Part shown: positions 736 to 20,930 of the stretch, one piece after another
Layout: each line of letters begins with the position of its first letter
Position numbering within the stretch: the first letter of the stretch is position 1
DNA from: a virus
Taxonomy: Duplodnaviria > Caudoviricetes
IMG/VR virus record: IMGVR_UViG_3300026551_000004
Span: 1-50,821 of that record
Strand: one strand, 5' to 3'
Length of the DNA stretch: 50,821 nt
Position numbers and translations under genes: made by a program
Notes under the pieces: model-generated
The model's input: only the letters and a program-made list of their open reading frames with translations
Told to the model about the DNA's origin: nothing
Databases searched by the model: none

Positions 736-829
736 CAGGTAATCAAGCCTACGAAGTTCTAATCTAACCTGCAATACACACGGGCAAGATGCGGGCAATG
801 TAAGGGTCTACAACATCAAGGTGAATACA

Positions 830-2110
830 ATGGCACGTATGCCCCGAACACAAACACAACAGCCTGCAACCAAGCCTGTTGAGCCGGATGTAAAGTCTCC
901 GTCTCAAGATGCGATCGCAGAGTGGAAGCGAAAACAGGCATTGAAGGATACAACATCCGATCCAGTGCAAGCCAATGTACAGGCCAACGTGTACGCGGAA
1001 GATGCCGAGATTAACGCAATGCTCACACGTGCTGGTGAATTTGGTGAGGCACTTGACAGCCATACTGAATATCGGCAAGGCGCCAGTGAGATAGCCAAGG
1101 CTAAGGAAGTCGATGACTACAAGGCAATAGCGTTTCTGAAATATCTAGAGACGTTCCTGTCATCGGCGCAATTGGCTTATCTACCATGGCCAGGCATGAC
1201 TAAATCGGATGCGGATGCAAAGAATATCCGCAACACTGCTTCTAACGAGAGCCCATTGCTGTTCGACAAGCCTGTCAACAGCGGTGGGCGTGCTAAGGTC
1301 GAAACGTTCTACGGTAAGTTGATCAAGAGCACGAAACTCGGACAAGAAGCGCAAGAAATACTCGACGAACTCGACAAGGAAGAGGCGAGAGCGAAGCTTG
1401 CACCTAGTGAGGCACGCGAGCGTGGTAACTTTGTTGCTGATAAAGCATCGGCAACGAGGCGTCTCAACAATCTGGTATCGGCAATGCGAACAGCGGCGCA
1501 TGTCCATCTCTTGATTAAGGACATTCAAAAGAGAATGCCGCATATCGTAATTGAGTGGATACGGGAACCGAGCGAGAAGGAAATACCGGAAGGTTCCGAC
1601 CTTACAATGCTCAACATCCCGGAAGCAGGGGAAGTTGTGCATTCCACTCAATGCCTCATGATCTACAGCACCAAGGGTTATGCTTCTCCGGCGCAAGCAT
1701 ATAAGAAAGCCAGACCCTTCTCACTCGGATCGTTCAAGAGATGGAAGCCGGATCGTGCAATTGCTAAGGCGGCAAGAAGAGTGGACGCACCTAGCGTCAC
1801 GGTAGACGATCTTATCGCTAGCGCAAAAGCACCGGCACAAGCACCTACCCCTGGATCAGTAGCCAAGGTTAGAGACGTTACCAATTGGACACAATTGGTT
1901 GAGAACCTAGACGCTATCGAAACTTATCTAACCGGACAGCCTGACAATCAACAAGCCCGGTCGGTTGAGTTCACTGGCAGTATCGGCGCAACGGATGACA
2001 CGCTCTATACCGCATATAGAATGTTCATCCGATTGCGTGCGGCATTCAATGGCAACCCGGCATTAGAACCGAAGGCAAAAGAAATCCATCTAGCACGCAC
2101 CAAGATATAA
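830..2110 (+). CDS. Large early hypothetical protein (~426 aa)
   Basis: Long ORF; ATG at 830 follows AAGGTG; followed by an intrinsic terminator; no recognisable motif. Confidence 0.8.
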   Translation: MARMPRTQTQQPATKPVEPDVKSPSQDAIAEWKRKQALKDTTSDPVQANVQANVYAEDAEINAMLTRAGEFGEALDSHTEYRQGASEIAKAKEVDDYKAIAFLKYLETFLSSAQLAYLPWPGMTKSDADAKNIRNTASNESPLLFDKPVNSGGRAKVETFYGKLIKSTKLGQEAQEILDELDKEEARAKLAPSEARERGNFVADKASATRRLNNLVSAMRTAAHVHLLIKDIQKRMPHIVIEWIREPSEKEIPEGSDLTMLNIPEAGEVVHSTQCLMIYSTKGYASPAQAYKKARPFSLGSFKRWKPDRAIAKAARRVDAPSVTVDDLIASAKAPAQAPTPGSVAKVRDVTNWTQLVENLDAIETYLTGQPDNQQARSVEFTGSIGATDDTLYTAYRMFIRLRAAFNGNPALEPKAKEIHLARTKI

Positions 2111-2115
2111 CTAAC

Positions 2116-2147
2116 AACCCCATGTCAGTAATGGCATGGGGTTTTTT
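2116..2147 (+). terminator. Rho-independent terminator
   Basis: CCCCATGTCA-GTAA-TGGCATGGGG followed by TTTTTT. Confidence 0.9.
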
Positions 2148-2350
2148 ATTGTCCTGCGTTATGTTTACACATATACAACGCACAGCATAGAGCGTTGTGT
2201 ACACATGAATATAGCGAATAGGTAACAGACCTGTCACAAACGCCAATGAGGCTGGCAATTTACAAACACAAATAGTTCTAAGAAATTAATATAATTGATA
2301 AATAGTTTTTATAAGGATGTGTGTGATATATGTCAACGAGCCTTACCAAT

Positions 2351-3739: not shown

Positions 3740-3994
3740 ATGAAGAACTTGATCTTGTTGCTATCCGTTCTAGTAACTAACACGACTGTTCAAGCACAAC
3801 AGCGTGGTATGTACTGGAATGACTGGACTCAGCGTTGGGAATGGCGTGGTCCCGGTCCTGTCACACGTCCATATCCTCCCGGTCCTGCGTACAATCCACC
3901 CCGTGATCTATATCAAGAATATCGTGAGTGGGGTGGAAAGAGACGCGATATATGCTATCGACCCAATGGTCAGGCATATTATTGTTACTACTGA
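3740..3994 (+). CDS. Small secreted/periplasmic protein
   Basis: MKNLILLLSVLVTNTTVQA signal-peptide-like N-terminus; W/Y/P-rich mature part. Confidence 0.6.
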   Translation: MKNLILLLSVLVTNTTVQAQQRGMYWNDWTQRWEWRGPGPVTRPYPPGPAYNPPRDLYQEYREWGGKRRDICYRPNGQAYYCYY

Positions 3995-4132
3995 TGGAGA
4001 ATGGAGGTGCAATACGGAACTTGGTTATGGATGTACGATAAACCCCGTACATCTTTCACTAAACTCGAATGGCAGGCTACTCATAAATGGCCTTTACGAA
4101 TTCGTAAATGGCAAAGAATAGGAGCAGACAAC

Positions 4133-4378
4133 ATGGTAAAGTTTAGCAGAGATGTGCGAGACAGACTTGTTGACGCTATGGATGCTGTTGCAGATGGGAA
4201 AATGGACAGCACTGATGTTAGTTCATTGTGCAAACTTGCTGATTCAATTTCTAAGCAAGATGCGGTTCATTTGAATATGGCAAAATTCATATATGAACAT
4301 GAACTGCATGCTCTGCCCGCAATGACCAAACTCCTTGGTAAAGAAACGCCCAACGGCAAAGCTTCGCAACCTTCATAG
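4133..4378 (+). CDS. Hypothetical protein
   Basis: AGGAG RBS before ATG 4133 (MVKFSRDVRD). Confidence 0.6.
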   Translation: MVKFSRDVRDRLVDAMDAVADGKMDSTDVSSLCKLADSISKQDAVHLNMAKFIYEHELHALPAMTKLLGKETPNGKASQPS

Positions 4379-4494
4379 CGACCTCCCACATCAAAGAAAG
4401 ATCAGTCAGGTAGGGTAATGACACCCTGACTGATTAAACTCACCACGGACCTTCCTACGCAGTCCTAGGGGCATTCTAATAGGAGTGGAGCACA

Positions 4495-4760
4495 TGCCAA
4501 TCATCAGTAAGATAACTATGCCTAAGCCAGTTCGTGAACTGAAGACAGAAACTGTGGAGGCTAATTACATTCCTGTTGATCATCCTATTGATTTAGATAA
4601 AACCATAGAAGAAGAATTAAAACGTGAATTGGCAATGGCGTCAATGATTACTCACCTATGGAAAACTAAACCCCGTATATTCAAAATGATATGCATGCAC
4701 TGTGACACTGATTATTTAGATATTTATGAATGGGCAAGGGAGAGACTAAGATGCAAATGA
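4495..4760 (+). CDS. Hypothetical protein
   Basis: ORF with GGAG RBS; start position approximate. Confidence 0.55.
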
Positions 4761-5043
4761 TCAGCAGTATCCAACCGCATCAATGGTTGGAAATGATACT
4801 AGCCATTATTGGTTTGTTCATTTACTTTATCCTCAAAGATAATAGGAGGATATGATAGGATGGCATGGCGTATATGTAAAGTACCAGGATGCCATAAAAT
4901 GAAACGTATTCAACCGTTCAATGCTAATACAAAACATCCTTGGTTGTGTTTCACACACAGACAAGAGCTGCAACAGAAAAGAATAGAACATTTAACCAGA
5001 ATGACTAATGTTAAACTATTGACTAAACTCTTTACCTCGAAAT

Positions 5044-5309
5044 AAACTCCGTAGCCGACTGCGGAGTTTTCCAACCGCTTGAGCTGATTTCCTCAGACCT
5101 CAGCTCGCGGTTGGTTTTCTACCCTAGCTGGCGAAAGCCAGCGTCGACGTTGCCAAAGGCAACTCGAAAGCTCAGAGAGAACGCTTCCCCACGGTAACCA
5201 CCGGCGAACTCTCTGGGCCTCGCCCCTCAGTATTTTTGTTCGCCCTTAGGTACTGAGGGGCACTTATTCTCAGGATACCCACATGAAACCTGGGTATCAC
5301 CAGAATAAG
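5044..5309 (+). ncRNA. Array of seven consecutive hairpins (structured leader or ncRNA)
   Basis: Stems at 5044-5069, 5071-5114, 5127-5142 (GAAA loop), 5149-5163, 5170-5218, 5222-5261 and 5263-5309; several G-U pairs fit + strand RNA. Confidence 0.6.
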
Positions 5310-5324
5310 CGAATGGAGTGAAAC

Positions 5325-5822
5325 ATGATGTACGAGACTATCGTTCGTCTCTTTGATACGTCTCAATTTAATACATGGGTGTTCAATAACCCTGTGTTAT
5401 TTTTGTGCATCCTTACACTTGGTTTAAGCACAGGATACTTTCTCTTCCCCCGTCTTATGTTGATTTACCTGTACCTCAGACATAAGCGTCGTCTGTGGTC
5501 ATGGCAAATACTTCGGGGGAAGCAGATGAGCAAAAGGGCGAGAGATCAAAAGCTAGGAGAACGTCTATACGACTTTTGCCTAGACGAGATCAATTCAGGA
5601 AGAATGACCCACAAGGAAAAACGACGTTATCTAAGAAACATAGAAATGGCGTTTGAGCTGGAACCTGGGACGCTGATACCCAAGCCATCCATTCATGAGC
5701 GCAAACGTCGAACTCTAGGTAGACTTTCTACTGAAGGAGCTAGTAAGTTTACTGAGAAAGTATCAGCAGCCGCACAGCCGCTTAAACAACGGTTGTCTTC
5801 TCTTATCGCAGGAAAGGTGTAA
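5325..5822 (+). CDS. Membrane-anchored hypothetical protein
   Basis: GGAG RBS; hydrophobic segment VLFLCILTLGLSTGYFLF followed by a basic domain. Confidence 0.7.
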   Translation: MMYETIVRLFDTSQFNTWVFNNPVLFLCILTLGLSTGYFLFPRLMLIYLYLRHKRRLWSWQILRGKQMSKRARDQKLGERLYDFCLDEINSGRMTHKEKRRYLRNIEMAFELEPGTLIPKPSIHERKRRTLGRLSTEGASKFTEKVSAAAQPLKQRLSSLIAGKV

Positions 5823-5827
5823 ACATC

Positions 5828-7195
5828 ATGTCGACTGTTAGCCGGACTTGTTTGGTCTATGCCAACAAAGGCAATCTACCTCCGGATGATTACTTGGCAC
5901 GTGTAGCTGCCAAGTACAACTCTTGGTACGGTTTTGCATTCGTCCAAGATGGCGAGATCATTTACGACATGGCCGCTGAAAGTGCCACTGCCGACGGTAT
6001 CAAACTGTTTCTCCAAAACAAGGAGATTGAAGGCGTCGACAAGATTATGGTTTTCGGCAAAGAAGCGAACAGCGTCACTCTTGACCCGAAAGATGCTGAT
6101 CACCCAAACATTCAGCCACTCATCTTGATTGAAGAAGGCGAAGGCAGCAACGCCGTACCTAAGTGTCTCGTCTTCATTGACGGAGAATTCCCTGGACTGG
6201 AAAGCAACACAGCGGACGAAGGTCGGCCGTATTTATTCTGTGGTCAGTATCTCAATCCCAAGATCCAAGAGAAATGGGAAGACTCTGGAGCAGATGTTGC
6301 GAAGTTTCTGGAGAAGATCAAACGGCCAGTCTTTCAGACTGACATCGAGAACTATGATAAGGAAATCGCTGTTGCCGTACTGTGCCCCGGCGATGGTGGT
6401 TTCGTTTACTTCGCAGCTAGAGACTCCCACGATTATCCCTGGGGTTTCACTAACGATACCTGCGGATGGGAAGACAAAGTCCCTACGTCTGGGAGTCCGT
6501 CTTCAACGGTAACCCCTGGTAAACGGGGTAGACTGACATCATTGATGACAAGTGTGGCACCGGCTGCAAGCGATGCAGTTGTCGACAATACTTCATCTGT
6601 TATTCTGTATGAAGGGCAGCTACCTGCTAACATCATTAAGAATAACGACATCCGTGCTGCATACAAGAAATACCACGGACGTGATGAACCTCCGGGGTGG
6701 AAGAACGGAAAACCATGGGTGTCTATTCTCCCGAACATGGTGGACAATGCAAGACAACAAGGATGGAACATCCGTACATCAAAACACCTCGCTGCTCAGG
6801 CTCCCATATCACCTAGCGGTACAGAGGCTCCGCCGCAAATCCTCACCGATGTGATGAAAGACAAACTGCTGAAGTTTGTTAGCGCTATTGATGCTAACAC
6901 TCAGCAAGTCGTATCTCCGGAAGAAATGGAGAAGAATGAGACAGCGTCTCCGACATTCTGGGATGATACTGGAATGACTTTGGAAACAGGCGTCAAAGTC
7001 TTTGGTGGAAAGGAAGAGCATCGTACTACATTGATTAAAGAAAATCCTACGGCTACTTCCAAACTTATTCGTGACTTATGCTACGCTCTCTTTCGCCAAG
7101 ATGCTGCAATCGAAGCGCTCACCGAGCCTACGCCTAAAGCACCAGCTGAGCCTGCGGTTGCTGTTACCCCAGCGAAGAAGTTCTCTATGAGATAA
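5828..7195 (+). CDS. Degenerate class II glutamine amidotransferase (Ntn)-like N-domain with a long C-terminal extension
   Basis: CLVYANKG...YGFAFV, NIQPL (vs NxHPF) and FIDG (vs HNG) are spaced like GATase-II; the Cys is not N-terminal. Confidence 0.5.
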   Translation: MSTVSRTCLVYANKGNLPPDDYLARVAAKYNSWYGFAFVQDGEIIYDMAAESATADGIKLFLQNKEIEGVDKIMVFGKEANSVTLDPKDADHPNIQPLILIEEGEGSNAVPKCLVFIDGEFPGLESNTADEGRPYLFCGQYLNPKIQEKWEDSGADVAKFLEKIKRPVFQTDIENYDKEIAVAVLCPGDGGFVYFAARDSHDYPWGFTNDTCGWEDKVPTSGSPSSTVTPGKRGRLTSLMTSVAPAASDAVVDNTSSVILYEGQLPANIIKNNDIRAAYKKYHGRDEPPGWKNGKPWVSILPNMVDNARQQGWNIRTSKHLAAQAPISPSGTEAPPQILTDVMKDKLLKFVSAIDANTQQVVSPEEMEKNETASPTFWDDTGMTLETGVKVFGGKEEHRTTLIKENPTATSKLIRDLCYALFRQDAAIEALTEPTPKAPAEPAVAVTPAKKFSMR

Positions 7196-8277: not shown

Positions 8278-9810
8278 ACGAGTACAATCATTGAACAACA
8301 CATTCCCTGTGACCGTTGTGGTTCTTCAGATGCTAAGTGTATTTGGGATGACGGTCATGGTTTCTGTTTCTCTTGCCAAACATTCTTTCCGAGTGAACGC
8401 CATGGGACCTCGGCCAATACCAAGGAATATACTTACGAGTATGTTCCTTGGCGTGGCGTAACTAAAGAAACAATGCAATTCTACGGTGTCAAAACTAAAG
8501 TAGACGCTGATGGTAAACCTATTGAGATTATATTTCCTTATCCTAATGCATCCAATAAGATTAGAAAGATTGAGGAAAAAGAATTTAGAACTGAGGGTGA
8601 TATATCCAAAGCTGGTTTATTTGGTCGTGATAAATTCTCGGCCGGTAGTAGCAAATTCGTTACTATCTGTGAAGGAGAACTCGATGCTCAATCGCTCCAT
8701 CAAGCTATCAACTCTCCTGTGGTCAGCGTTCGTAGTAGCACTACTGCTGCTAGCGATGTCACTTTGGATAGATCCTGGGTTGACTCATTTGAGAGGATCT
8801 ATTTATGCTTCGACAATGACCGACCTGGCAAAGAAGCTCTGGGCAATGTTGCCAAGCTATTCGACTATAATCGGGTTTATCAAGTAAAGCTTTCCAAACG
8901 AAAAGACCCGAATGAGTATCTACAGGCAGGTGAAGCGGCAGAGTTAAAGCATATCTGGTGGAATTCTAAGAATTACCTGCCTGATACCATAGTATCGTCC
9001 TTCGATGAGTTCGAAGAAATCTTAAATGCCGATCTGCAATATGGGTTTCCATATCCATGGACAACCCTAACGGAGATGACATATGGGATCCGAACAGGAG
9101 AATCAGTTCTCATCACGGCTCAAGAAGGAGTCGGAAAAACAGAATTTCTCCACGCAATCGAGTACAAGTTCCTCAGAGAAACCGATGAAAACATCGCCTC
9201 CATCTTCCTCGAAGAACCCAAAAGAAGACATCTACAGGCTATTGCAAGTCTTGAGCTTGGTAGACCTGCGCATATTCCCGCAGTTGATCTCACACAAACT
9301 GACATCATGGCTGCTGTCCGAAAAGCTATATCGTCGGATGGCCGTTACCACCTGTACAATCACTTTGGGAGTGTGGATCCAGATACACTTCTGGATGCTA
9401 TACGGTTTTTACGTACTGCCCGTGGCTGTCGCCGTATCTTCTGTGATGGTATTACTCTGGGCGTTAGCGGTCTTCAAGGAGAAGACGAAAGGAAAGCTCT
9501 CGATTACCTCACCAACAGACTAGAGATGATGGTGAAGGAACTAGACTTCTCTTTCATCTTCAGTAGCCACGTGAACGATAACTACCAAACACGTGGCTCT
9601 CGCAATACTTCTAAGGTTGCGGACATACGTATAGATTTAACAAGAGACTTAACCAATGCCGACAACACCATCAGGAACACCACAGATATCTCAGTCTCAA
9701 AAAACAGGTTCTGTGGACGAACTGGACCTGCTGGTCGACTCCTATTTAACCCTAACACGTATTCCTACGTGGAGGCATCTAATGACAACCAACGGGAGAT
9801 GGCAGCATGA
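8278..9810 (+). CDS. T7 gp4-like DNA primase-helicase
   Basis: Zn finger PCDRCGSSDA...FCFSC upstream of the ATG 8473 call; TOPRIM CEGELDA and FDND; Walker A QEGVGKT; RGS; KNRFCGRTG. Confidence 0.93.
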   Translation, partial: TSTIIEQHIPCDRCGSSDAKCIWDDGHGFCFSCQTFFPSERHGTSANTKEYTYEYVPWRGVTKETMQFYGVKTKVDADGKPIEIIFPYPNASNKIRKIEEKEFRTEGDISKAGLFGRDKFSAGSSKFVTICEGELDAQSLHQAINSPVVSVRSSTTAASDVTLDRSWVDSFERIYLCFDNDRPGKEALGNVAKLFDYNRVYQVKLSKRKDPNEYLQAGEAAELKHIWWNSKNYLPDTIVSSFDEFEEILNADLQYGFPYPWTTLTEMTYGIRTGESVLITAQEGVGKTEFLHAIEYKFLRETDENIASIFLEEPKRRHLQAIASLELGRPAHIPAVDLTQTDIMAAVRKAISSDGRYHLYNHFGSVDPDTLLDAIRFLRTARGCRRIFCDGITLGVSGLQGEDERKALDYLTNRLEMMVKELDFSFIFSSHVNDNYQTRGSRNTSKVADIRIDLTRDLTNADNTIRNTTDISVSKNRFCGRTGPAGRLLFNPNTYSYVEASNDNQREMAA

Positions 9811-11062: not shown

Positions 11063-11308
11063 ATAAACAGATATACTAATCTTCCTAATAAAATCTATAG
11101 ATTTGGAGATAATACTCATTGTCTTGTTTTTAGAAGAAAAAGAGGATGGAGTTACACTTGTAGAATTCCAATAGAAGGAAAAAGATTTATTCAAATGTCT
11201 CTTAATAATCATACTTTTGCTGAGTCAGAAGAAGATGCTAAAAGTAAATCTATTCCTTCTTTATTTGATCTAAAAGAAAGACTATCTGGTTTACTTCTTA
11301 CAGCATGA
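11063..11308 (+). CDS. Possible hypothetical protein lacking a canonical start
   Basis: Stop-free frame 11048-11308 in AT-rich DNA, ending in an ATGA overlap with the polymerase start; ATA at 11063 is a candidate start. Confidence 0.4.
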   Translation: MNRYTNLPNKIYRFGDNTHCLVFRRKRGWSYTCRIPIEGKRFIQMSLNNHTFAESEEDAKSKSIPSLFDLKERLSGLLLTA

Positions 11309-13239
11309 GAGTAGTCTTAGACATAGAAGCTAATGGTAAAGATAACCCTACTAAAATATGGGTTATCTGTTGTCTGGATATCGACACTGGTAAACTACAT
11401 ACCTTCAGGAGAGTCAGCGATGATCCCGTACAGAAAGAAGAGTTTCTGGTATTTAGTAAGCGCGTCAATACTTGGATTGGCCATAATATTATCGCTTATG
11501 ACTTCCCCGTTCTCTCCTCTCTTCTTTCTCTTCAAACTCCTCCTCTTAATTGTAATAGGTGTATTGATACTCTTATTGTTAGCAAACTTAACGATTACTC
11601 CAGAGGACAAGGACATTCCTTAGAGTCTTACGGGGAAGAACTAAACTACCCCAAGAACCTCTTCTCTGACTGGTCTAAATACTCTCAAGAACTGGAGGAT
11701 CGTTGTGCAACAGATGTTCGACTCAATCTACTGGTTTACAATACTCTCTTCGATAGCTACATTAAGCATAGCTGCAATAAATCCGCTATTACTACAGAGC
11801 AGGAGTTTCAGCAGGATTGCGTGGACCTTGGTAACACTGGCTTTGGGTTTGCCACTCCTAAATGTAATCTTCTTCTAGAGAAAGTAACCAGGGAATTAAA
11901 GGAACTTGACGATGACATCAGACAATCCTTTCCTCCGCGCTTGCACTGTATTCGTGAAATCACTCCCAGATACACCAAATATGGGACTCTTAATAGGACG
12001 GACTTCCGATGGGTATCTGGCGGTGATGTATCGGAATTCAACGGAGGTTCATTCTGTAGATGTGAATACCGACCCTTTAATCCTAGCTCTCATAAACAAA
12101 TTATTCGCATCTTGCATAGTGCAGGTTGGAAACCAACAAGTAAAACCAAAGGTCACATTGAGGCCCTCCGCAACAGACAGACTCTCCCAAGCAGGCTACA
12201 GGAGATACAAAAGACCGGGTGGAAGATCAACGAAGAAAACTTAAGTACTTTACCTTCTAGTGCCCCATCCCCTGCTCGTGCGCTTGCAAGGCGTATCTTG
12301 CTTGAGTCCAGGCGTCGCACTCTCACTGAGTGGACAGGGTTAGTGGCGGAGGATGGACGCATCCACGGTAGTTTTCTCAGCATTGGTGCCTGGACTCACA
12401 GGATGGCTCACCAGAAGCCAAACATGGCTAATATTCCCAAAAGCCATGATCTTGAAGGAAAGGTTAAGCTTCTTGGGTCAGAGATGAGATCTCTATTCTG
12501 TTGTAGTAGAGACCGTCTATTGGTGGGTGTAGATGCGGAGTCAATACAACTCCGGATCTTTGCCCATTACATAGATGATGAAGAGTTCACTAACTCTCTT
12601 ATTTACGGTAAGAAGGAGGACAAAAGTGACCCACACAGCCTCAACCAAAGAGTACTCGGTAGTGTTTGCAAAAGCAGGGAAGCCGCCAAGCGTTTCATCT
12701 ATGCATTTCTACTCGGAGCGGGACTTGGAAAGCTATCTGAGATACTTGGGTGTGGAAGAGAGGAGGCGGAACGTGCTCTTGCGAAACTTATGGAGCGATA
12801 TACCGGTTTCGACTACCTTAAGAGAACAGTTATTCCAAGAGATGCCCGTAAAGGCTGGTTTACAGGACTGGATGGACGCAAAGTTAATATACCTGGAGTG
12901 GACGTGGGGGAAAGACGGCATCTGGCTATGTCTGGCTATCTTCAGAACGGAGAAGCCATCATAATGAAGAAAGCAAGATTAAATTGGAAGAAAAAGATTG
13001 ACTTAATCTTTCCGAAGGAGTACAACATCAAACTAGTTAACTTCGTACATGATGAATGGCAAACTGAAGTACCTAATGATTTAATGATTGCTCATCAAGT
13101 AGCGAAGATTAAGTGTCAATCACTGGTAGAAACAGGAGTAGAACTTAAACTAAAGTGTCCATTAGCAGGTAGCTATGGAGAAAACCACAATGATCCACGA
13201 ACGTGGACAATAGGGAGTAATTGGAAAGTTACACATTAA
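11305..13239 (+). CDS. Family A DNA polymerase with 3'-5' exonuclease
   Basis: ExoI DIE, ExoII HNIIAYD; motif A DAESIQLR, motif B KRFIYAFLLG, motif C VHDE. Confidence 0.97.
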   Translation: MRVVLDIEANGKDNPTKIWVICCLDIDTGKLHTFRRVSDDPVQKEEFLVFSKRVNTWIGHNIIAYDFPVLSSLLSLQTPPLNCNRCIDTLIVSKLNDYSRGQGHSLESYGEELNYPKNLFSDWSKYSQELEDRCATDVRLNLLVYNTLFDSYIKHSCNKSAITTEQEFQQDCVDLGNTGFGFATPKCNLLLEKVTRELKELDDDIRQSFPPRLHCIREITPRYTKYGTLNRTDFRWVSGGDVSEFNGGSFCRCEYRPFNPSSHKQIIRILHSAGWKPTSKTKGHIEALRNRQTLPSRLQEIQKTGWKINEENLSTLPSSAPSPARALARRILLESRRRTLTEWTGLVAEDGRIHGSFLSIGAWTHRMAHQKPNMANIPKSHDLEGKVKLLGSEMRSLFCCSRDRLLVGVDAESIQLRIFAHYIDDEEFTNSLIYGKKEDKSDPHSLNQRVLGSVCKSREAAKRFIYAFLLGAGLGKLSEILGCGREEAERALAKLMERYTGFDYLKRTVIPRDARKGWFTGLDGRKVNIPGVDVGERRHLAMSGYLQNGEAIIMKKARLNWKKKIDLIFPKEYNIKLVNFVHDEWQTEVPNDLMIAHQVAKIKCQSLVETGVELKLKCPLAGSYGENHNDPRTWTIGSNWKVTH

Positions 13240-13240
13240 G

Positions 13241-13408
13241 ATGAAAACATATCAATTTGAATTTGAATATATGGTACCAGAGTTTGCTACTGTGACTGTG
13301 GAAACCAAAGATGATATTAATACAGCCAAGACTTTGGCTATGGCAGAATTTACCCGGATGTATCCAGAAGCAATTGATCCGGAGATTGTTAGTACTACCA
13401 GTGACTGA
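13241..13408 (+). CDS. Small hypothetical protein (55 aa)
   Basis: MKTYQFEFEYMVPEF...; fills the gap between the polymerase and SSB genes. Confidence 0.55.
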   Translation: MKTYQFEFEYMVPEFATVTVETKDDINTAKTLAMAEFTRMYPEAIDPEIVSTTSD

Positions 13409-13883
13409 ATACGTTTATTTAAGTGGTAAGTGTAAGTGGTGTAAGGCCATTACACCTAATCAATTCGGAGACTGGAGGACTGATCTTTATCCTGACGACA
13501 AGTCTTTAACAAAGATCATGGAACTTAAAGCGAGAGGACTTAAGAATACGCTAAAGAAAGATGACGATGGACCATGCATGTCTTTCAAACGTCCCATGAC
13601 AAAGATGATGAAAGGCAGAGCAGTTAACTTTACAAACCCTGTTGTGGTTAACAGTGCTGGAACGCCTATTAATGAAGCAATAGGCAATGGTTCAGAAGTT
13701 ACAATTAAACTCTTGATTTATCCATTTAGAACTCCCAACGGTGCCAGTGGTATCGGTGCCAGATGGGAGTCAGTAAGAGTTGATAACTTAGTTCCTTGGG
13801 AATTGAAAGACTTTGCGAGTCCAGAGGAAAGAGAAGCTATCTTTGGACTTAAGGAAGCACCTAAAGGTGAATATAACTTCTAA
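13401..13883 (+). CDS. Single-stranded DNA-binding protein (T7 gp2.5-like)
   Basis: LSGKCKW...IGNGSEVTIK...RWESVRV, aromatic C-terminal residue; GTG start at 13401. Confidence 0.75.
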   Translation: MTEYVYLSGKCKWCKAITPNQFGDWRTDLYPDDKSLTKIMELKARGLKNTLKKDDDGPCMSFKRPMTKMMKGRAVNFTNPVVVNSAGTPINEAIGNGSEVTIKLLIYPFRTPNGASGIGARWESVRVDNLVPWELKDFASPEEREAIFGLKEAPKGEYNF

Positions 13884-14039
13884 TGGAATTCTTAAAAGAA
13901 TACTCTAAAGAAGAGTTGGAGATTAATAAACTTAAATGTCAAGTAGAAGGACTGACAGATCGAGTTAATCTCTTAGAAAGATACTATATTGAGTGGTTGA
14001 AGTTAAAAAAGTACTATAATTTGAAAGAAGGAGAATAAT

Positions 14040-14249
14040 ATGTACCTTACAACCGAGAAGATTTATGAGAAGGATGCTGACTCAGCACATTCTCATTACA
14101 CACGAGCATGGTCAACTAGAGAAGCAGCTGAGGATCATGCTAAGCGTAAGGCTCAGACTACCAACGGTGCACCTGAGTTCCAGGTGTATATGTTGATTTC
14201 TACTACTAAGACTTCAGGTGTTTATGAAGCTGAGGTTAAGCTTGTTTGA
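14040..14249 (+). CDS. Small hypothetical protein (paralogue group)
   Basis: AGGAG RBS; WSTREAAEDHA. Confidence 0.7.
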   Translation: MYLTTEKIYEKDADSAHSHYTRAWSTREAAEDHAKRKAQTTNGAPEFQVYMLISTTKTSGVYEAEVKLV

Positions 14250-14298
14250 AATTTCTAACTTCATAGAAGATATTTACAATAAAAAGGAGACAAGACCA

Positions 14299-14511
14299 AT
14301 GTCTAGTGCTGTTTATGTAGAAACTTGGATGGATGGTTATTGCAACAATCAATTCAAGACCCGTGACGAAGCTGTTGCATCCGCAACTAAGCACGCTCAG
14401 TATTATAAGACTGACGTAGCGATCTGGAGGTCCGTGGCTGTTGCCCGGTATCCGTTTCCCACAATCACTATTGAGGAAATTGTACCAGTGGTGGCACAAG
14501 CCTCAAGTTAA
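14299..14511 (+). CDS. Small hypothetical protein (paralogue group)
   Basis: AGGAG RBS; FKTRDEAVASA. Confidence 0.7.
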   Translation: MSSAVYVETWMDGYCNNQFKTRDEAVASATKHAQYYKTDVAIWRSVAVARYPFPTITIEEIVPVVAQASS

Positions 14512-14529
14512 TGTTGAGGAGATTGTTTA

Positions 14530-14808
14530 ATGTCTTTTAAAGATTATCTCACCGATGGTGAGTGGGATGATTTTATGTTTGACGAAGAAGAGGAGAATAC
14601 TATGACTATTGATTTCACGAAACCCGTTTACCTCGTTGCTTGCCAGGACTCTAGCGCCTTGTTCAATGATCTTGACGGGGCAATCAAGAAGGCAGCAACA
14701 AGCGCGAAAATGGATCGAGACGGTGACGATTATTTCGTCATGCAAGCGATCAAGCGTGTGGCTACGCCACGTCCCGAGGCAACCATTACGGATATGCCTG
14801 TTGCCTAA
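14530..14808 (+). CDS. Small hypothetical protein (paralogue group; alternative start 14602)
   Basis: RBS before both 14530 and 14602; FNDLDGAIKKA. Confidence 0.7.
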   Translation: MSFKDYLTDGEWDDFMFDEEEENTMTIDFTKPVYLVACQDSSALFNDLDGAIKKAATSAKMDRDGDDYFVMQAIKRVATPRPEATITDMPVA

Positions 14809-14946
14809 CTACTCATCTAGTTAGGTATCTCCTGCCAGTAACAAAGAACCTGGTAGAGCCCGCGGTCAAAGGTTCTAATACCAATGTGCGCGGCGGGCAT
14901 AGTTCATTAATAGTTAGGCAATTTGCCCTCACTTGGAGTAAAGATC

Positions 14947-15189
14947 ATGTCTATCTTTCGCACAACACACATATACAATTCCGATAAGATAGAAAAGTAT
15001 CATCCCTCCAAGGAAGAGGCGGTGACTTTCTTGACTATCAAAGCTTTCGAAGATTTTCTAGGACGCATACCTACCAAAGGAATGAACTTAGAAAAAAGAG
15101 CTGATACTGCAAGACAACTTCTTCCTGCTCTTTTAGACCGACTTGAAGAAATTGAGAAACACGTCGAGGAATATAAACCGGTAAAATAG
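14947..15189 (+). CDS. Hypothetical protein
   Basis: GGAG RBS before MSIFRTTHIY. Confidence 0.6.
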   Translation: MSIFRTTHIYNSDKIEKYHPSKEEAVTFLTIKAFEDFLGRIPTKGMNLEKRADTARQLLPALLDRLEEIEKHVEEYKPVK

Positions 15190-16750
15190 TTTGTTACTTG
15201 CCACTAGTCGCATATATCACCGGGTGGTAATAAGCTCTAGTAAAGCTGACTAGAGTACCGAGTGCAACTCTGACCTACTGAAGTCCTTTTGTCCATGACT
15301 ACATGATGAGTGCGATACCGCGGGAATAGAAACAGTAGGAAACATTCCCGCCTTGGTAGTAAAACTTCATGTAAGATGCAACTCAGGAACGTGGGTGAGT
15401 GGTGGTAGAGTGGTGATCTACCCTAGTGAGGAGAGACCCAGCGTGTGCACGTAATGTACATCCATATAGGTGTGAAAGCAGACTGAGGCTTCTCAATCCA
15501 TTTAGCTGCAGGATACAAAAAGCAGCAAGACTGGCTACATCAGTACTTGTACTGGTTCGACTCCAGTCCTACTCGACTGACAGGTATCGAGAGTGTGGCG
15601 CAATATGGCAGACGCAACTGATGATGCCACCCGCAACGTCACCTGTGGAGGCTAAAAACGGAGACAATAGGACGTGTACCTCTATGTCCGGTGGCAGACG
15701 ATCAGCCGTCTGAACCACAACGGAGTCCATACCCTAGTGGTCAGACAACATAGAGCGACGTCATCCACGCCTCACGTGGAGTAGCTTTGAATAATCGTCT
15801 CATACGTAACAACCTGAGATGTGTCTCTCGGGCTAGTGTTCCTAGTATAGTATGGGACAAGTAGGATACACACCGCTCTTTGGACGGAGTGTAGGTTCCC
15901 AGATGGTTCGAAGCCATCATGGTGGTAGTGGGACCAGCTAATCCCTCAACGGGAACGCGAAATACCAAATGGTAAAGGAACCGAGGCCAGTCCTAAACGT
16001 CTTCTCTCAGAGTCCCTGGGAAATAAACCGACGTGTAAGCAAATCACATTGACAGAAACGAGACAGTCTTGTGTACCAGGCCACCGCTGAAATAGTGCGG
16101 ACTGGAATAGACAGCAGCAGATTACTGCTTCCTCTATTGTAAGCAAGATACCTCTCAAGGATGTATGCAGGGTGCAACCTGTAGATGCGGACTACCAACC
16201 CGCGTGTGGTAAGGCGAATACTGTTGAAGAGGTGAGGAAGAGTGTGATCCGAAAATAATGGGTTTCTTAGGTGTTACAGCAACGAGCAGAGCGAGTCTGC
16301 TGTTGCTAGACTGTTGAGGCTCCATTAGCTTCTCTGGTCGTCTTCTTTCCCTTTTGAAGGCAGAGGAAGCCGTTAACGATCACCGATGAACAATACCCAC
16401 TCCAAGCAGCAGCTGCTATAGTGCGCAAACTCACATTGACCGTCTTGTCTGGGATGCTAGACAGAATGGTGACGAGCAGTAGAATGTGTAGTCTTAAGTC
16501 CCAGCCGCAAGTTCCCGACTTCTCACACAGTCGCAGACATAAAGCCGCCGGATGCAAGACAACTGAGTACTCGGCCTGACTCGGGCAGGAAAGGTATTCT
16601 ACATAAGTCTCTTGTGAGGTACTCAAGTTCTACTTACCCAGTTCCGGCAGTCAACCGTAAGCTGGACCATCGTAGAGATTGGAGGTGTTGGATGAGGCAT
16701 AAGTATATTACTCCACCTATCCGCCCCCCTTAAGTTCACCAGTATGCCGA
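15190..16750 (+). ncRNA. Candidate large structured non-coding RNA (one RNA or a cluster)
   Basis: No credible RBS-led ORF over 1.55 kb; continuous stems, T-loops, a pseudoknot and a permuted tRNA-like domain; boundaries approximate. Confidence 0.75.
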
Positions 16751-16765
16751 GAAGAGGAGGTTAAC

Positions 16766-17038
16766 ATGTTCGGCTATCCAATTTATCAACAGTCACAACC
16801 ACAGAAATCAATTAAAGAACAGATAGATGAATTAGAACTTCTATCTGAATTTCTGAAGAAGAAATATGAAAAGAAAGATGATAAAGGATCACCTAAGTTG
16901 AAAGATAAGAAGTTCTCCATATGGGAGGGAGGTTTAATTCTCTGGGTATTTAGCTTTACTTGTGCTGTTCCTATAGTTGGACTTCAACTGAGCAGTATCT
17001 ACAATCTATTTCAAACTATGAATAGGATGTTTAAATGA
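16766..17038 (+). CDS. Membrane protein
   Basis: GAGGAGG RBS; C-terminal hydrophobic segment. Confidence 0.7.
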   Translation: MFGYPIYQQSQPQKSIKEQIDELELLSEFLKKKYEKKDDKGSPKLKDKKFSIWEGGLILWVFSFTCAVPIVGLQLSSIYNLFQTMNRMFK

Positions 17039-17286
17039 AAAGACCAGAATTAAGACCCCATCATTTTGATGGGAAAGTTTCCAAAGTAGTTGAAGAATGC
17101 GGAGAAGTATTGCAGGAAATAGGTAAACTTCAGAGACACGGAGCCTTTGCAACTGATCCATCTGACTCAACTAAACACTATGATAACATTTCTCCCTTGA
17201 AAGCAGAGCTTCTTGATTTGCAAGATGCAATAGAACAATTACTTATTGAGCGAATATTTGAAATCAATACACACACTAGTACCTGA
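17035..17286 (+). CDS. MazG-like nucleotide pyrophosphohydrolase
   Basis: KVVEECGEVLQEIGK...AELLDL (EExxE...ExxD). Confidence 0.75.
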   Translation: MKRPELRPHHFDGKVSKVVEECGEVLQEIGKLQRHGAFATDPSDSTKHYDNISPLKAELLDLQDAIEQLLIERIFEINTHTST

Positions 17287-18124
17287 CGTTTACGAACTCT
17301 TACAAACGAAGGGATGGTACAATGAAACTCTACTTTCCTACTTCAGCGCTCAACTCAATACGAGCCTTAAAGCGCAATGGTCAGATAGTGACGGTACACA
17401 TCGCGGACTTAGATTATCTCGAATGGGAGATCAGTGTCCGAGAGCTTTATGGTACAGCATCCACCAGCCAGAACTGGCCGAACCTCTCCCATCTTGGGCT
17501 AATTTTAAATACACGTACGGACACATAATAGAGGCTTTGGCTCTAACCTTAGCTAAGGCCGCAGGCCATCGAGTTGAGGGAGAGCAGGATGAGTTGGTCG
17601 TCGATGGGATTAAAGGTCATCGCGACGCTGTTATTGACGGCTGTCTCGTGGACGTTAAATCTGCTACAAGTTTTAAAGTGGCAGAGAGCAGAAGGGGATC
17701 TTTGGAGAAGAACGATAATTTTGGCTACCTCGATCAGCTTGATGGTTATGTACTTGGATCTGCTAATGATCCTTTGGTTACTGTAAAGGACAAAGGATAT
17801 CTCTGGTTCATCGATAAAACCTTGGGGCACATGCATGTCTACGAACACACCGCGAGACCCGAACGGATACTTCATCGAGTTAACGAATATAAAATCGTTG
17901 TTGAGCGAAGCTCAGAGCCTGCTTGTACGTGCGGAACAAGACCAAGAGGAACATCCGGAAACATCGAACTCGATGTTAGAGCAAGCTATTCACCGTTTAA
18001 ACACAGCTGTTTCCCGCACCTTAGGACTTTCCTCTACTCTGATGGGCCGGTTTATCTTTCTAGAGTTTCAAAGACTCCTGATGTCCCAGAAATTAACAGA
18101 CAAGGAAGAATAGTTTATCACTAA
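17258..18124 (+). CDS. PD-(D/E)XK (Cas4-like) exonuclease
   Basis: LRLSRMG..CPRALWY, YGHIIE, GHRDAVID...VDVKS, YLDQLDGY; probable TTG start MKSIHTLV. Confidence 0.85.
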   Translation: MKSIHTLVPDVYELLQTKGWYNETLLSYFSAQLNTSLKAQWSDSDGTHRGLRLSRMGDQCPRALWYSIHQPELAEPLPSWANFKYTYGHIIEALALTLAKAAGHRVEGEQDELVVDGIKGHRDAVIDGCLVDVKSATSFKVAESRRGSLEKNDNFGYLDQLDGYVLGSANDPLVTVKDKGYLWFIDKTLGHMHVYEHTARPERILHRVNEYKIVVERSSEPACTCGTRPRGTSGNIELDVRASYSPFKHSCFPHLRTFLYSDGPVYLSRVSKTPDVPEINRQGRIVYH

Positions 18125-18470
18125 GACTAGGAATAAGTTCGAGGAAAGAACTCGAAGACAGTTAATTCGTGCCAAGATGGGGTATGGATATGAAACAGAA
18201 AAGATATCTTATACGATCTATGGCACTTACACCCCTGATTTTATTATCAATGACAATTGGTTTCTTGAGTGCAAAGGTTATTTCAGACGAGAAGATAAAC
18301 GGAAGCTTGCTGCAGTTAAACACTGCAATCCGTCTCTTGATATCCGGATCTTGTTTTATTCCTATAACGCCAGAGATGTTGAATGGGCAGTCAAGAACGG
18401 CTTCCCATACGCAATAGAAACCATACCGACGGAGTGGTTAACATGCAAACAATCTACACAATCGGCTTAG
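18117..18470 (+). CDS. T7 gp3-like endonuclease I / Holliday junction resolvase
   Basis: RNKFEE upstream of the ATG call; YTPDF, ECKG, DIRILF, WAVKNGF. Confidence 0.88.
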   Translation: MTKTRNKFEERTRRQLIRAKMGYGYETEKISYTIYGTYTPDFIINDNWFLECKGYFRREDKRKLAAVKHCNPSLDIRILFYSYNARDVEWAVKNGFPYAIETIPTEWLTCKQSTQSA

Positions 18471-20847: not shown

Positions 20848-20881
20848 AAACCCCGGCACCGAAAGGTGACCGGGGTTTTTT
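20848..20881 (+). terminator. Intrinsic terminator at the junction of the two arms (possibly bidirectional)
   Basis: AAA-CCCCGG-CACC-GAAA-GGTG-A-CCGGGG-TTTTTT. Confidence 0.88.
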
Positions 20882-20930
20882 AGTGTCTAACGTGTCGTTT
20901 ACTGCATAAACGCACAAATTCTAGATTAAG

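What the first reader, a model, noticed from the sequence alone, without database searches (positions are those of the whole stretch)
15190..16750. Candidate giant (~1.5 kb) structured non-coding RNA in a compact lytic phage
Seen: in an otherwise tightly packed genome, 1.55 kb has no credible RBS-led gene yet is paired almost continuously: CTCTAGT/ACTAGAG, TACATGA/TCATGTA enclosing GCGGGAAT/ATTCCCGC, GGTAGA/TCTACC, CTCTATGT/ACATAGAG, TCCACG/CGTGGA, AGCAAC-AGCAGA/TCTGCT-GTTGCT, TGTCTGG/CTAGACA, TGAGTAC/GTACTCA. It includes nested multiloops, two TTCGA T-arms and TGCAA loops. Known: phages encode large ornate ncRNAs such as GOLLD and ROOL, typically under 1 kb. Inference: a larger, possibly undescribed class or a cluster of RNAs. 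It does not interrupt a gene. This is the best candidate for a new system in the window.
Basis: partly seen in the sequence, partly recalled or inferred. Interest (0 to 1): 0.92.

Follow-up and report, generated by a model that had tools for sequence, protein, structure and literature searches.

The report
Giant phage RNA with stalling leader
A 1.5-kb stretch of this soil phage that encodes no protein appears to be a large folded RNA of a previously uncatalogued family, and it ends in a tiny conserved gene whose Pro-Pro-stop ending probably stalls ribosomes.

Summary
The ORF-free stretch is real. No stop-codon reassignment opens it. Against its one close relative, L002, it differs without 3-base periodicity and by hairpin-sized indels.

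Single-sequence folding is not exceptional. Comparative evidence for structure is strong:
- Window/L002: 47 compensatory pairs, against 25.8±2.6 in column shuffles.
- Six sequences of a sister subgroup: 43 covarying pairs, against 20.9±3.0, 0 of 500 shuffles.
- A shared two-hairpin core in 20 distinct sequences: covariation 0.588 against 0.189±0.028.

Rfam 15 has no match in the window or in 15 related loci. The core occurs only in uncultured phage contigs; the window's own DNA is held by soil runs.

New here: the last ~50 nt are not non-coding. A Shine-Dalgarno-led micro-ORF (window 16692-16733, MRHKYITPPIRPP*) ending Pro-Pro-stop closes the ORF-poor region in 38 of 39 clade loci. It is absent at that place in 44 more distant relatives.

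Best reading: a new family of 1.0-1.6 kb ornate phage RNAs, coupled at the 3' end to a ribosome-stalling leader peptide. Expression and function are untested.

The parts
15190..16680 (+). Body of the large structured RNA: ORF-free, conserved, and kept by compensatory changes.
   Evidence: The homologous stretch is L002:3926-5553. It is 75% identical with indels counted and 81.7% over aligned columns. RNAalifold gives 467 pairs, 47 of them compensatory, against 25.8±2.6 in 15 column shuffles. Mismatches fall 94/101/78 over the three phases, and 27 indels are mostly not multiples of 3.
15235..15255 (+). Hairpin CTCTAGT/ACTAGAG.
   Evidence: All 7 pairs are kept in L002 (CCCTGGT/ATCAGGG) and in L109 (CCCTAGT/ACTAGGG) through changes on both sides.
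15551..15567 (+). T-arm-like hairpin 1 (ACTGG-TTCGACT-CCAGT).
   Evidence: Read from the sequence. It is conserved in L002 with a single loop change. ARAGORN calls no tRNA here.
15637..15666 (+). Core hairpin C: a covarying 6-7 bp stem closing a 16-nt loop that holds GGAGGCTAAAA (15647-15657).
   Evidence: On 10 sequences (A5) covariation is 0.578 against 0.179±0.053, 0 of 500 shuffles. On 20 sequences (A8) all 7 pairs show changes on both sides.
15688..15707 (+). Core motif D: CCGGTGRCAGACG(N)GATCAGYC, a 3-bp stem G-R-C/G-Y-C around a conserved loop.
   Evidence: The R-Y pair is A-U in 13, G-C in 6 and unpaired in 1 of 20 sequences. The CCGGTG.CAGAC columns are invariant in the 20-sequence alignment.
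15680..15755 (+). Helix CTCTATGT/ACATAGAG, enclosing motif D.
   Evidence: L002 has CCCTATGT/ATATAGGG with all 8 pairs kept.
15902..15918 (+). T-arm-like hairpin 2 (GATGG-TTCGAAG-CCATC).
   Evidence: Read from the sequence. L002 keeps the stem, with loop TTCAAAT.
16168..16181 (+). Hairpin E, with a GTGCAA loop.
   Evidence: Invariant in L002. The sister subgroup has the same loop on different stems: TATAGG/CCTATA, or CTGGA/TCCAG.
16681..16685 (+). Shine-Dalgarno sequence (GGAGG) of the leader micro-ORF.
   Evidence: It lies 6 nt upstream of ATG 16692. An SD-like word precedes the micro-ORF in all 38 loci that have one; this was a condition of the search.
16692..16733 (+). Leader micro-ORF MRHKYITPPIRPP*, ending Pro-Pro-stop.
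   Evidence: Translation. Found in 38 of 39 clade loci on the + strand, 0 of 39 on the reverse strand, and 0-2 of 39 in 20 shuffles. Other doubled-residue tails score 0-3 of 39. Pro codons vary synonymously and L110 has TGA instead of TAA.
16752..17038 (+). Ribosome-binding site (GAGGAGG, 16752-16758) and gene of a 90-aa protein with a hydrophobic C-terminal stretch. This is the first gene after the leader.
   Evidence: ORF. It has no Pfam or PHROG family. Homologous N-termini follow the leader in L023, L030 and L034.

Best explanation
Window 15190-16680 most likely specifies a large, multi-domain structured RNA of a family that Rfam does not hold.

**What is shown**
- It lies on the + strand, inside the phage's replication-gene block. 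The order is primase-helicase, DNA polymerase A, Gp2.5-like SSB, small ORFs, the RNA, a small hydrophobic protein, a MazG-like pyrophosphohydrolase, and a Cas4-domain exonuclease.
- Its sequence evolves by compensatory changes and by gain and loss of whole hairpins around short invariant loops. These are GGAGGCUAAAA, AGACG.GAUCA and GUGCAA, plus tRNA-like T-arms.
- The region always ends in an SD-led micro-ORF of 11-33 codons that ends Pro-Pro-stop (8 codons only if a shorter alternative start is used in one locus).

**What is inferred**
- No promoter or terminator of its own was found, so it is probably transcribed with its neighbours.
- The folded RNA is the functional product. It would work like the phage-borne ornate RNAs GOLLD and ROOL, as a self-folding and possibly self-assembling particle whose exposed conserved loops contact a partner.
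- The ribosome translating the leader pauses at Pro-Pro-stop directly at the RNA's 3' edge.
- That paused ribosome insulates and tunes the downstream genes. It would melt the G+C-rich hairpin that overlaps or follows the stop codon. It would also block Rho or exonucleases arriving from the long untranslated stretch.

**My odds**
- The RNA structure is under selection: about 0.9.
- The leader is translated and its Pro-Pro-stop ending matters: about 0.7.
- The stand-alone-RNA-plus-insulator arrangement as described: about 0.45.
For: **Non-coding**
- No ORF over 106 aa.
- With any single stop read through, the longest open frame is 189 codons. It reaches 359 only if TAG and TGA are both read.
- Window/L002 mismatches fall 94/101/78 by phase, against 86/36/186 in polA. 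The 27 indels include lengths 1, 2, 5, 7, 8, 14, 26 and 40. Indels in the flanking genes are almost all multiples of 3.

**Conserved structure**
- Pair alignment: 47 compensatory pairs and -949 kcal/mol, against 25.8±2.6 and -837±14 in 15 shuffles. The reverse strand gives 38 and -906.
- Sister subgroup, 6 sequences: 252 pairs, 43 with changes on both sides against 20.9±3.0 (0 of 500 shuffles). Slid controls give 5-10.
- Core hairpins, 20 sequences: covariation 0.588 against 0.189±0.028 (0 of 500 shuffles). Slid controls reach at most 0.158.

**A family**
- Model R2 finds the core at E ≤ 6.5e-8 in 22 of 98 sources. These are 20 seeds plus L110 and L018.
- The pattern scans gave 8 viral and 17 metagenome stretches.
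- The profile of the window pair hits L034 and L023 at two collinear places, E 0.0026-0.047.

**Not a known family**
- 0 Rfam matches at gathering score in the window.
- 0 Rfam matches in 124,385 nt of 15 related loci.
- Only two microRNA-model noise hits at E ≤ 10.
- 0 tRNA or tmRNA genes.

**Leader ORF**
- 38 of 39 clade loci have it, with controls at 0-3 of 39.
- 0 at that position in 44 distant loci.
- It is the only SD-led micro-ORF shared by the window and L002, 1 of 6.
- An ORF-poor stretch precedes it: median 1378 nt, and at least 880 nt in 35 of 38 loci.
- G+C-rich hairpins sit on or just after the stop codon in L023 and L004.

**Context from papers**
- Passages say GOLLD and ROOL are phage and prophage RNAs of unknown function that form cages, and that GOLLD sometimes carries tRNAs in its linker.
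- Passages say C-terminal RAPP-like peptides upstream of diverse genes arrest ribosomes.
Against: - No transcript evidence. The only runs that hold the DNA are soil DNA runs.
- Single-sequence folding energies are ordinary.
- The whole-length structures come from RNAalifold on the same alignments that were then counted. The shuffle and slide controls are therefore lenient.
- The window's own subgroup has only one full-length relative (L002) and one partial relative (L109).
- The core hairpins are found clearly in only about 15 of the 38 clade loci. Homology of the other ORF-poor stretches to the window's RNA rests on short shared motifs, position, and the leader.
- No promoter or terminator of its own was found. 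It may therefore never exist as a discrete RNA.
- Strict co-occurrence with the leader fits a cis-acting leader just as well.
- Stalling at Pro-Pro-stop is inferred from other systems. The leader lacks the R-A/G-P-P motif of the studied arrest peptides.
- In the window, the single-sequence fold does not show clear masking of the downstream RBS.
Confidence: 0.45

Rival explanations
1. The whole stretch is one giant cis-acting leader. The 1.0-2.3 kb fold would sense a cellular or phage signal, for example a tRNA, a ribosome or a protein bound at the T-arms or conserved loops. It would then open or close the Shine-Dalgarno sequence of the Pro-Pro-stop leader. Stalling of the leader would in turn set expression of the small hydrophobic protein, the MazG-like protein and the exonuclease. 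The RNA would have no role in trans.
For: - The RNA and the leader co-occur strictly: 38 of 39 clade loci, against 0 of 44 distant loci at that place.
- There is no promoter or terminator between the RNA and the leader.
- In the sister subgroup, an invariant long-range helix (A7 columns 913-920 with 1274-1281) and a covarying local hairpin (helix 43, 3 pairs with changes on both sides) both overlap the leader's SD and start.
- In the window's local fold, part of the leader's SD pairs with the C-run at the leader's own 3' end.
Against: - From recall, known bacterial cis-regulatory leaders are a few hundred nt at most. I know of none of 1-2 kb.
- The long-range SD-masking helix never varies in the 6 sequences, so it has no covariation support.
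- Its 5' strand is not conserved in L002.
- Invariant exposed loops and modular hairpin turnover resemble the free-standing ornate RNAs.
Confidence: 0.3
2. The stretch is a cluster of several separate small RNAs, for example tRNA-like elements and sRNAs, followed by an unrelated leader peptide. It would not be a single molecule.
For: - The conserved blocks are separated by variable hairpins and by indels of 19-40 nt.
- There are two T-arm-like hairpins in the window.
- ARAGORN makes odd tRNA-like calls inside the equivalent region of L038 and L041.
- Subgroups share some modules and not others.
- In run X5, contigs of relatives cover conserved blocks and skip variable ones.
Against: - The predicted folds have long-range helices that enclose several hundred nt, some with compensatory changes. 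Examples are A7 helix 10 (272-285 with 400-411, 4 covarying pairs) and helix 17 (443-460 with 596-612, 3 covarying pairs).
- No internal promoter- or terminator-like sites above chance on the + strand.
- No Rfam small-RNA family matches.
Confidence: 0.12
3. It is not a functional RNA. It would be a DNA-level element such as a replication origin or packaging site, or decaying remnants of genes.
For: - It sits in the replication module.
- There is no expression evidence.
- Ordinary folding z-scores.
Against: - Compensatory changes that keep pairs, including G-U pairs that would be A-C on the other strand. Examples are A7 pairs 231-246 and 961-1114, G-U or U-G in 6 of 6 sequences.
- The + strand scores better than the - strand.
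- Invariant blocks of about 60 nt lie between diverged stems.
- Identity of 81.7% is as high as in the neighbouring genes.
- G+C is above the flanks, not below as in typical origins.
Confidence: 0.05
4. It is protein-coding, read under a changed genetic code or through programmed frameshifts.
For: If TAG and TGA were both read through, one - strand frame would be open for 359 codons.
Against: - Every frame has 18-34 stops.
- All neighbouring genes read normally in table 11.
- No 3-base periodicity of substitutions, and indels that are not multiples of 3.
- The ORFs inside differ between the window and L002.
Confidence: 0.02

Closest known systems
GOLLD and ROOL RNAs (large ornate RNAs of phages and prophages)
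   Same: - Phage-borne and very large.
- Many covarying helices around conserved loops.
- One part more conserved than the rest, with variable inserts.
- tRNA-like elements inside or nearby.
- Function unknown.

Paper passages seen say that GOLLD often exceeds 800 nt, has a conserved 3' region and a variable 5' region, sometimes carries tRNAs in its linker, and rises during lysis. They also say both RNAs form RNA-only cages held by kissing loops and A-minor contacts.
   Different: - No match to any Rfam model, so it is not a member of either family.
- Longer: about 1.5 kb in the window and 1.0-1.2 kb in the sister subgroups.
- No tRNA genes in the genome.
- It sits in the replication-gene operon, not beside tRNA islands.
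- It is always followed by a Pro-Pro-stop leader ORF, which I have not seen described for GOLLD or ROOL (recalled, and not found in the passages read).
- Oligomerisation was not tested.
C-terminal RAPP-like arrest peptides (ApdA, ApdP, ApcA, CruR, SecM-type)
   Same: A small SD-led ORF immediately upstream of another gene, with two prolines at its C-terminal end, often preceded by Arg. Passages say such peptides stall the ribosome near their C-terminus and regulate downstream genes of diverse function.
   Different: - 0 of 38 leaders have R-A-P-P or R-G-P-P. The endings are RPP in 17, QPP in 12 and other-PP in 9.
- The peptides are much shorter (mostly 11-23 residues, up to 33).
- They are phage-encoded.
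- The stop codon directly follows Pro-Pro, so the pause would be at or just before termination.
- Stalling was not tested.
TnaC (tna operon) and proline-codon leader ORFs such as mgtP. Both are recalled from memory, apart from the TnaC passage.
   Same: A short leader peptide with Pro next to the stop codon. The paused ribosome controls what happens on the RNA just downstream, either by blocking Rho or by remodelling a hairpin.
   Different: - No sequence similarity.
- No evidence of a small-molecule inducer.
- Here the leader follows, rather than precedes, more than 1 kb of structured RNA.
tRNA and tRNA-like structures of phages
   Same: Two hairpins in the window have the 5-bp stem and 7-nt TTCGANN loop of a tRNA T-arm. 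Equivalent hairpins recur in 27 of 38 clade loci.
   Different: ARAGORN finds no tRNA in the window and none in 45 of 47 related loci. The hairpins are embedded in a much larger fold.

Membership tests
GOLLD RNA | Match to the family's covariance model (sequence plus consensus structure). | tested here: not met
   cmscan of the window against all 4227 Rfam 15 families gave 0 matches at gathering score. At E ≤ 10 on 15000-16900 only two microRNA models appeared. Fifteen related loci gave 0 matches. That Rfam holds a GOLLD profile is stated in the methods passage of PMC12286853.
ROOL RNA | Match to the family's covariance model. | tested here: not met
   The same searches apply. An Rfam profile for ROOL is mentioned.
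GOLLD / ROOL as a kind (ornate phage RNA) | Homo-oligomeric RNA-only assembly. | not testable with these tools
   This needs in-vitro transcription followed by cryo-EM, mass photometry or a native gel.
Group I / group II intron | Match to intron models, and interruption of a host gene whose exons join in frame. | tested here: not met
   No Rfam match. The upstream ORF ends with its own TAG at 15189, and the downstream gene has its own RBS and ATG at 16766.
tRNA / tmRNA / RNase P RNA | Detection by ARAGORN or by Rfam models. | tested here: not met
   ARAGORN found 0 genes in the window. Rfam gave 0 matches. Only isolated T-arm-like hairpins are present.
RAPP-type ribosome arrest peptide | C-terminal Arg-Ala/Gly-Pro-Pro motif. 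| tested here: not met
   0 of 38 leader peptides carry RAPP or RGPP. 17 end in RPP, 12 in QPP and 9 in another residue plus PP. The motif definition comes from passages.
RAPP-type ribosome arrest peptide | Small ORF encoded directly upstream of the regulated gene. | tested here: met
   In the window the leader's stop at 16733 lies 32 nt before ATG 16766. The position is the same in 38 of 39 clade loci.
RAPP-type ribosome arrest peptide | Ribosome demonstrably stalls at the motif. | not testable with these tools
   This needs toeprinting or PURE translation with Pro-to-Ala controls.
Protein-coding gene | Open frame, 3-base periodicity of substitutions, and indels in multiples of three. | tested here: not met
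   See, for 15190-16680. These features are met only by the 13-codon leader. There the evidence is synonymous Pro-codon changes and a TAA-to-TGA switch.

The most novel reading that the evidence does not exclude
The RNA and the ribosome stalled on its Pro-Pro-stop leader may form one machine. A >1 kb ornate phage RNA would stay tethered, through its own 3' end, to a paused host ribosome. Two readings are possible. In one, the fold (T-arms and SD-like GGAGG loops) captures or reprograms ribosomes or tRNAs during infection. In the other, it is the largest known sensor leader, gating translation of replication-module genes. Either would be a kind of RNA-ribosome coupling not described for GOLLD, ROOL, or any riboswitch or attenuator.
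Probability: 0.2. Interest if true: 0.95.

Novelty: new variant of a known kind. Interest (0 to 1): 0.8.

Why it matters
- Only a handful of bacterial or phage non-coding RNAs larger than about 500 nt are known. Each has proved structurally remarkable; GOLLD and ROOL form cages larger than a ribosome.
- A further family of 1.0-1.6 kb would be among the largest non-ribosomal structured RNAs of the prokaryotic world. It would give structural biologists a new target.
- The core was found only in uncultured phage contigs. The runs that hold the window's DNA are soil metagenomes.
- Its invariable coupling to a Pro-Pro-stop leader peptide gives a concrete experimental handle. Toeprinting and reporter fusions could address what such RNAs do, which is an open question for the whole class.
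- It also adds a phage example, with a different motif (x-Pro-Pro-stop), to the growing set of proline-based arrest peptides.

Tried and rejected
**Searches that found nothing**
- blastn against 50,697 phage records: no match.
- Single-sequence nhmmer and blastn against 87 fetched loci: only L002. Relatives beyond one subgroup are too diverged for sequence search.
- Exact 19-mer scan of viral contigs: only L002's contig.
- The hairpin-only model R1 found its 10 seeds plus L024 (E 0.023) and nothing else convincing.

**Alignments that were not usable**
- MAFFT alignments A3 and A4 did not put the helix arms in register. I did not use them for counts.

**Matches judged to be chance**
- L104 was not re-found by R2.
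- L114, from a Clostridia MAG, lies inside a 328-aa ORF. So no bacterial or archaeal genome among the GTDB species representatives held in genome contigs gave a credible match to the core pattern.

**Stop-codon reassignment**
- Rejected.

**Own promoter or terminator**
- Promoter-like sites: 4 found, against 4.7±2.7 expected.
- None of the 8 terminator-like sites bounds the RNA on the + strand.
- The conserved 5' block occurs once in the genome.
- No repeated promoter-like word lies at the RNA's edge.

**Kissing loops**
- I considered that the palindromic words in conserved loops (GAUC, UGCA, CUUAAG) mark self-pairing kissing loops.
- CUUAAG turned out to be the Pro-stop codons of the leader.
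- 4-nt palindromes are too common to count as evidence.

**RNase P**
- A resemblance of GGAAAGUCC-like words in some relatives to RNase P was considered. It was dropped because no Rfam model matches.

**Expression**
- No RNA holder is listed among public runs, so expression could not be examined.
- Contigs of four DNA runs were laid. X6 covered nothing.

**Closed or limited sources**
- Supplementary tables of PMC10690425 (8,495 candidate structured RNAs from IMG/VR intergenic regions) could not be seen. Local pieces of this RNA may already be listed there.

**Claim 'not in print'**
- It rests on searches, and on passages read. None mentions a >1 kb phage RNA followed by a Pro-Pro-stop leader.
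Full report
**1. What the window is**

The window is a complete 50,821-nt virus record.
- Genes on the + strand run to about 20.7 kb. Structural genes run on the - strand from 20.9 kb onward.
- The + strand block holds a Toprim/DnaB primase-helicase (8473-9810) and a family A DNA polymerase (11305-13239).
- It also holds a Gp2.5-like SSB (13311-13883), a MazG-like NTP pyrophosphohydrolase (17035-17286) and a Cas4-domain exonuclease (17246-18124).
- The nearest cultured phages are only 33-42% identical in polymerase and exonuclease. They are Roseobacter phages CRP-5, CRP-4 and CRP-13, Sinorhizobium phage phiM6 and the SIO1 group.
- The DNA of this phage is held by soil-metagenome DNA runs only.

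**2. The observation**

Between the TAG at 15187-15189 and the ATG at 16766 there is no ORF longer than 106 aa.
- Every frame has 18-34 stop codons. Reading through any single stop opens at most 189 codons.
- Predicted folding energies of 300-nt windows are not unusual. The + strand z-scores run from -1.85 to +0.52, and coding flanks reach -5.5.

On the single sequence, then, the pairing is not above chance.

**3. The one close relative**

A protein search with the exonuclease brought in L002, which is 78% identical at the amino-acid level.
- L002 has a homologous ORF-free stretch at 3926-5553. It is 75% identical with gaps counted and 81.7% over aligned columns.
- The alignment (A1) shows invariant blocks of up to about 60 nt. 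These alternate with diverged segments and with indels of 19, 21, 33 and 40 nt.
- Mismatches show no codon periodicity: 94/101/78, against 86/36/186 in polA.
- The 27 indels are mostly not multiples of three. Those in the flanking genes almost all are.

RNAalifold on the pair gives 467 pairs, of which 47 changed on both sides.
- Fifteen column shuffles that keep the conservation pattern give 25.8±2.6 such pairs and -837±14 kcal/mol. The real alignment gives -949.
- The reverse strand scores lower, at 38 pairs and -906.
TGTCTGG keeps 6 of 7.
- TCCACG never varies. The AGCAAC/AGCAGA hairpin is absent from L002. TGAGTAC keeps 5 of 7 pairs.
- A partial third sequence, L109, is 85% identical over the first 668 nt. 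It keeps CTCTAGT with its own compensating change.

**4. A wider family**

An alignment of seven exonuclease homologues fetched 80 more loci.
- In the loci at least 48% identical in this protein (38 distinct, plus the window), short words recur upstream of the exonuclease in a fixed order.
- These words are T-arm motifs, GGAGGCTAAAA, CCGGTGACAGACG, GGGTGCAACC and CCACCTTAAG.
- GGAGGCUAAAA is the centre of a 16-nt loop closed by a stem whose sequence differs in almost every member but stays complementary. On 10 sequences covariation is 0.578 against 0.179±0.053, 0 of 500 shuffles.
- CCGGUGRCAGACG(N)GAUCAGYC holds a pair R-Y that is A-U in 13 and G-C in 6 of 20 sequences.

A pattern joining both motifs was scanned across three collections.
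- It found 8 stretches in viral contigs, 17 in metagenome contigs and 1 in genome contigs.
- After removing duplicates and two chance matches (L104; L114, which lies inside an ORF), 20 distinct sequences were aligned (A8).
- On these, covariation is 0.588 against 0.189±0.028, 0 of 500 shuffles. Slid controls reach at most 0.158.
- The model R2 built from A8 finds the core at E ≤ 6.5e-8 in 22 of 98 sources. Weaker partial matches (E 5e-4 to 0.05) occur in nine further clade loci.

A sister subgroup gives a good full-length alignment of about 1.15-1.2 kb (L023, L030, L034, L094, L096, L110).
- It has 252 predicted pairs in 44 helices.
- 43 pairs show changes on both sides, against 20.9±3.0 in shuffles (0 of 500). 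Slid controls give 5-10.
- Several pairs are G-U in all six sequences, which fits only the + strand.
- The profile of the window pair hits this subgroup at two collinear places, E 0.0026-0.047.

The window's RNA and the subgroup's RNA are therefore diverged homologues with the same order of modules.

**5. Not a known family**

- Rfam 15 gives nothing at gathering score in the window.
- It gives only two microRNA-model noise hits at E ≤ 10 in the region.
- It gives nothing in 124 kb of 15 related loci.
- ARAGORN finds no tRNA or tmRNA in the window and none in 45 of 47 related loci. The two exceptions are odd tRNA-like calls inside the equivalent region.

**6.

The word CCACCTTAAG is the end of a tiny gene.
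- In the window, GGAGG at 16681-16685 is followed 6 nt later by ATG 16692, 13 codons and TAA. The peptide is MRHKYITPPIRPP*.
- An SD-led ORF of 11-33 codons ending Pro-Pro-stop stands at the 3' edge of the ORF-poor stretch in 38 of 39 clade loci. An 8-codon version appears only as an alternative start in one locus.
- The same search finds 0 of 39 on the reverse strand and 0-2 of 39 in each of 20 shuffles. Seven other doubled-residue endings score 0-3 of 39.
- The Pro codons vary synonymously (CCA/CCG/CCC and CCT/CCC), and one member has TGA for TAA. The constraint is therefore on the peptide end.
- The endings are RPP in 17, QPP in 12 and another residue plus PP in 9. None is RAPP or RGPP.
- In 44 more distant loci (at most 44% identity) no such ORF stands there. 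Three hits lie about 2.9 kb upstream.
- T-arm motifs in those distant loci belong to ordinary tRNA genes.
- The distance from the last SD-led ORF of at least 60 aa to the leader has a median of 1378 nt. It is at least 880 nt in 35 of 38 loci.
- Among SD-led micro-ORFs in the window's stretch, only this one is shared with L002, 1 of 6.

The long ORF-poor RNA region and the Pro-Pro-stop leader thus form one cassette that defines this phage clade.

**7. How it may work (inference)**

- No promoter or terminator of its own was found.
- Terminator-like GGGGTTTTTT words at 2138 and 20872 bracket the + strand block. The RNA is therefore probably made as part of the operon transcript.
- Its invariant loops on covarying stems, its T-arms and its modular hairpin turnover resemble GOLLD and ROOL. 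Those are phage RNAs of unknown function that fold and assemble on their own (passages).
- Consecutive prolines at a peptide's end are the hallmark of arrest peptides that regulate downstream genes (passages). Proline next to a stop codon slows termination, as in TnaC and in the Pro-Pro-stop work of Hayes and Sauer (recalled).
- In L023 a G6/C6 hairpin begins 4 nt after the stop. In L004 a hairpin encloses the stop. A ribosome held there would melt either one. In the window the picture is less clear.

I therefore favour a self-folding RNA product whose 3' edge is guarded by a paused ribosome. That ribosome would shield and tune the genes behind more than 1 kb of untranslated RNA. The main rival is that the whole fold is a giant sensor leader gating the leader's SD.

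**8. Limits**

- There is no expression data.
- Whole-length structures were predicted on the same alignments that were counted.
- The window's subgroup has only two further sequences, one of them partial.
- About 23 of the 38 clade loci lack a clear core match.
- An earlier survey of IMG/VR intergenic regions reported 8,495 candidate structured RNAs (passages). Its tables could not be seen, so local pieces may already be listed.
- No paper found in searches describes a >1 kb phage RNA with a Pro-Pro-stop leader.

**9. Verdict**

The finding is real and interesting. It is a new family of very large structured phage RNAs. It works like, but is not a member of, the GOLLD/ROOL kind. It has an unexpected, clade-wide ribosome-stalling leader at its end.

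Noticed in passing
window 2138-2168 and 20872-20902: Two copies of a GGGGTTTTTTA.TGTC... word (77% alike) lie at the two ends of the + strand gene block. They look like the tails of intrinsic terminators bracketing the early/middle transcription unit.
   Followed up: no
window 17035-17286 and 17246-18124: The MazG-like ORF and the listed TTG start of the Cas4-domain exonuclease overlap by 41 nt. The homologues align only from residue 5-8 onward, so the true start of the exonuclease may lie further downstream.
   Followed up: no
L038:1617-1710 and L041:2453-2548: ARAGORN calls over-long, odd tRNA-like genes inside the ORF-poor RNA region of two relatives. They are 94 and 96 nt; one has anticodon att and the other a 4-letter anticodon. 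This recalls tRNAs in the GOLLD linker.
   Followed up: partly
L030, L096 and L094 (A7 columns ~485-590): An insertion of 50 to about 100 nt is present in three of six sister-subgroup RNAs. It carries a T-arm hairpin (GAAGG-TTCAAAT-CCTTC) flanked by a stem, like the acceptor/T 'top half' of a tRNA.
   Followed up: no
window 13300-18300 in run X5: One soil run holds many contig pieces 80-99% like this stretch. Some join across the variable hairpins of the RNA, skipping 15289-15378, 15673-15760 and 15899-15970. This suggests a swarm of related phages that differ by whole hairpins.
   Followed up: partly
L023:2180-2215, and likewise L034 and L094: Directly after the leader's stop codon comes GGGGGG-N6-CCCCCC followed by a U-rich run. 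This is a likely attenuator or terminator that the window itself lacks.
   Followed up: partly
window 821-2110 and 5828-7195: Two large early ORFs (429 and 455 aa) have no Pfam or PHROG family.
   Followed up: no
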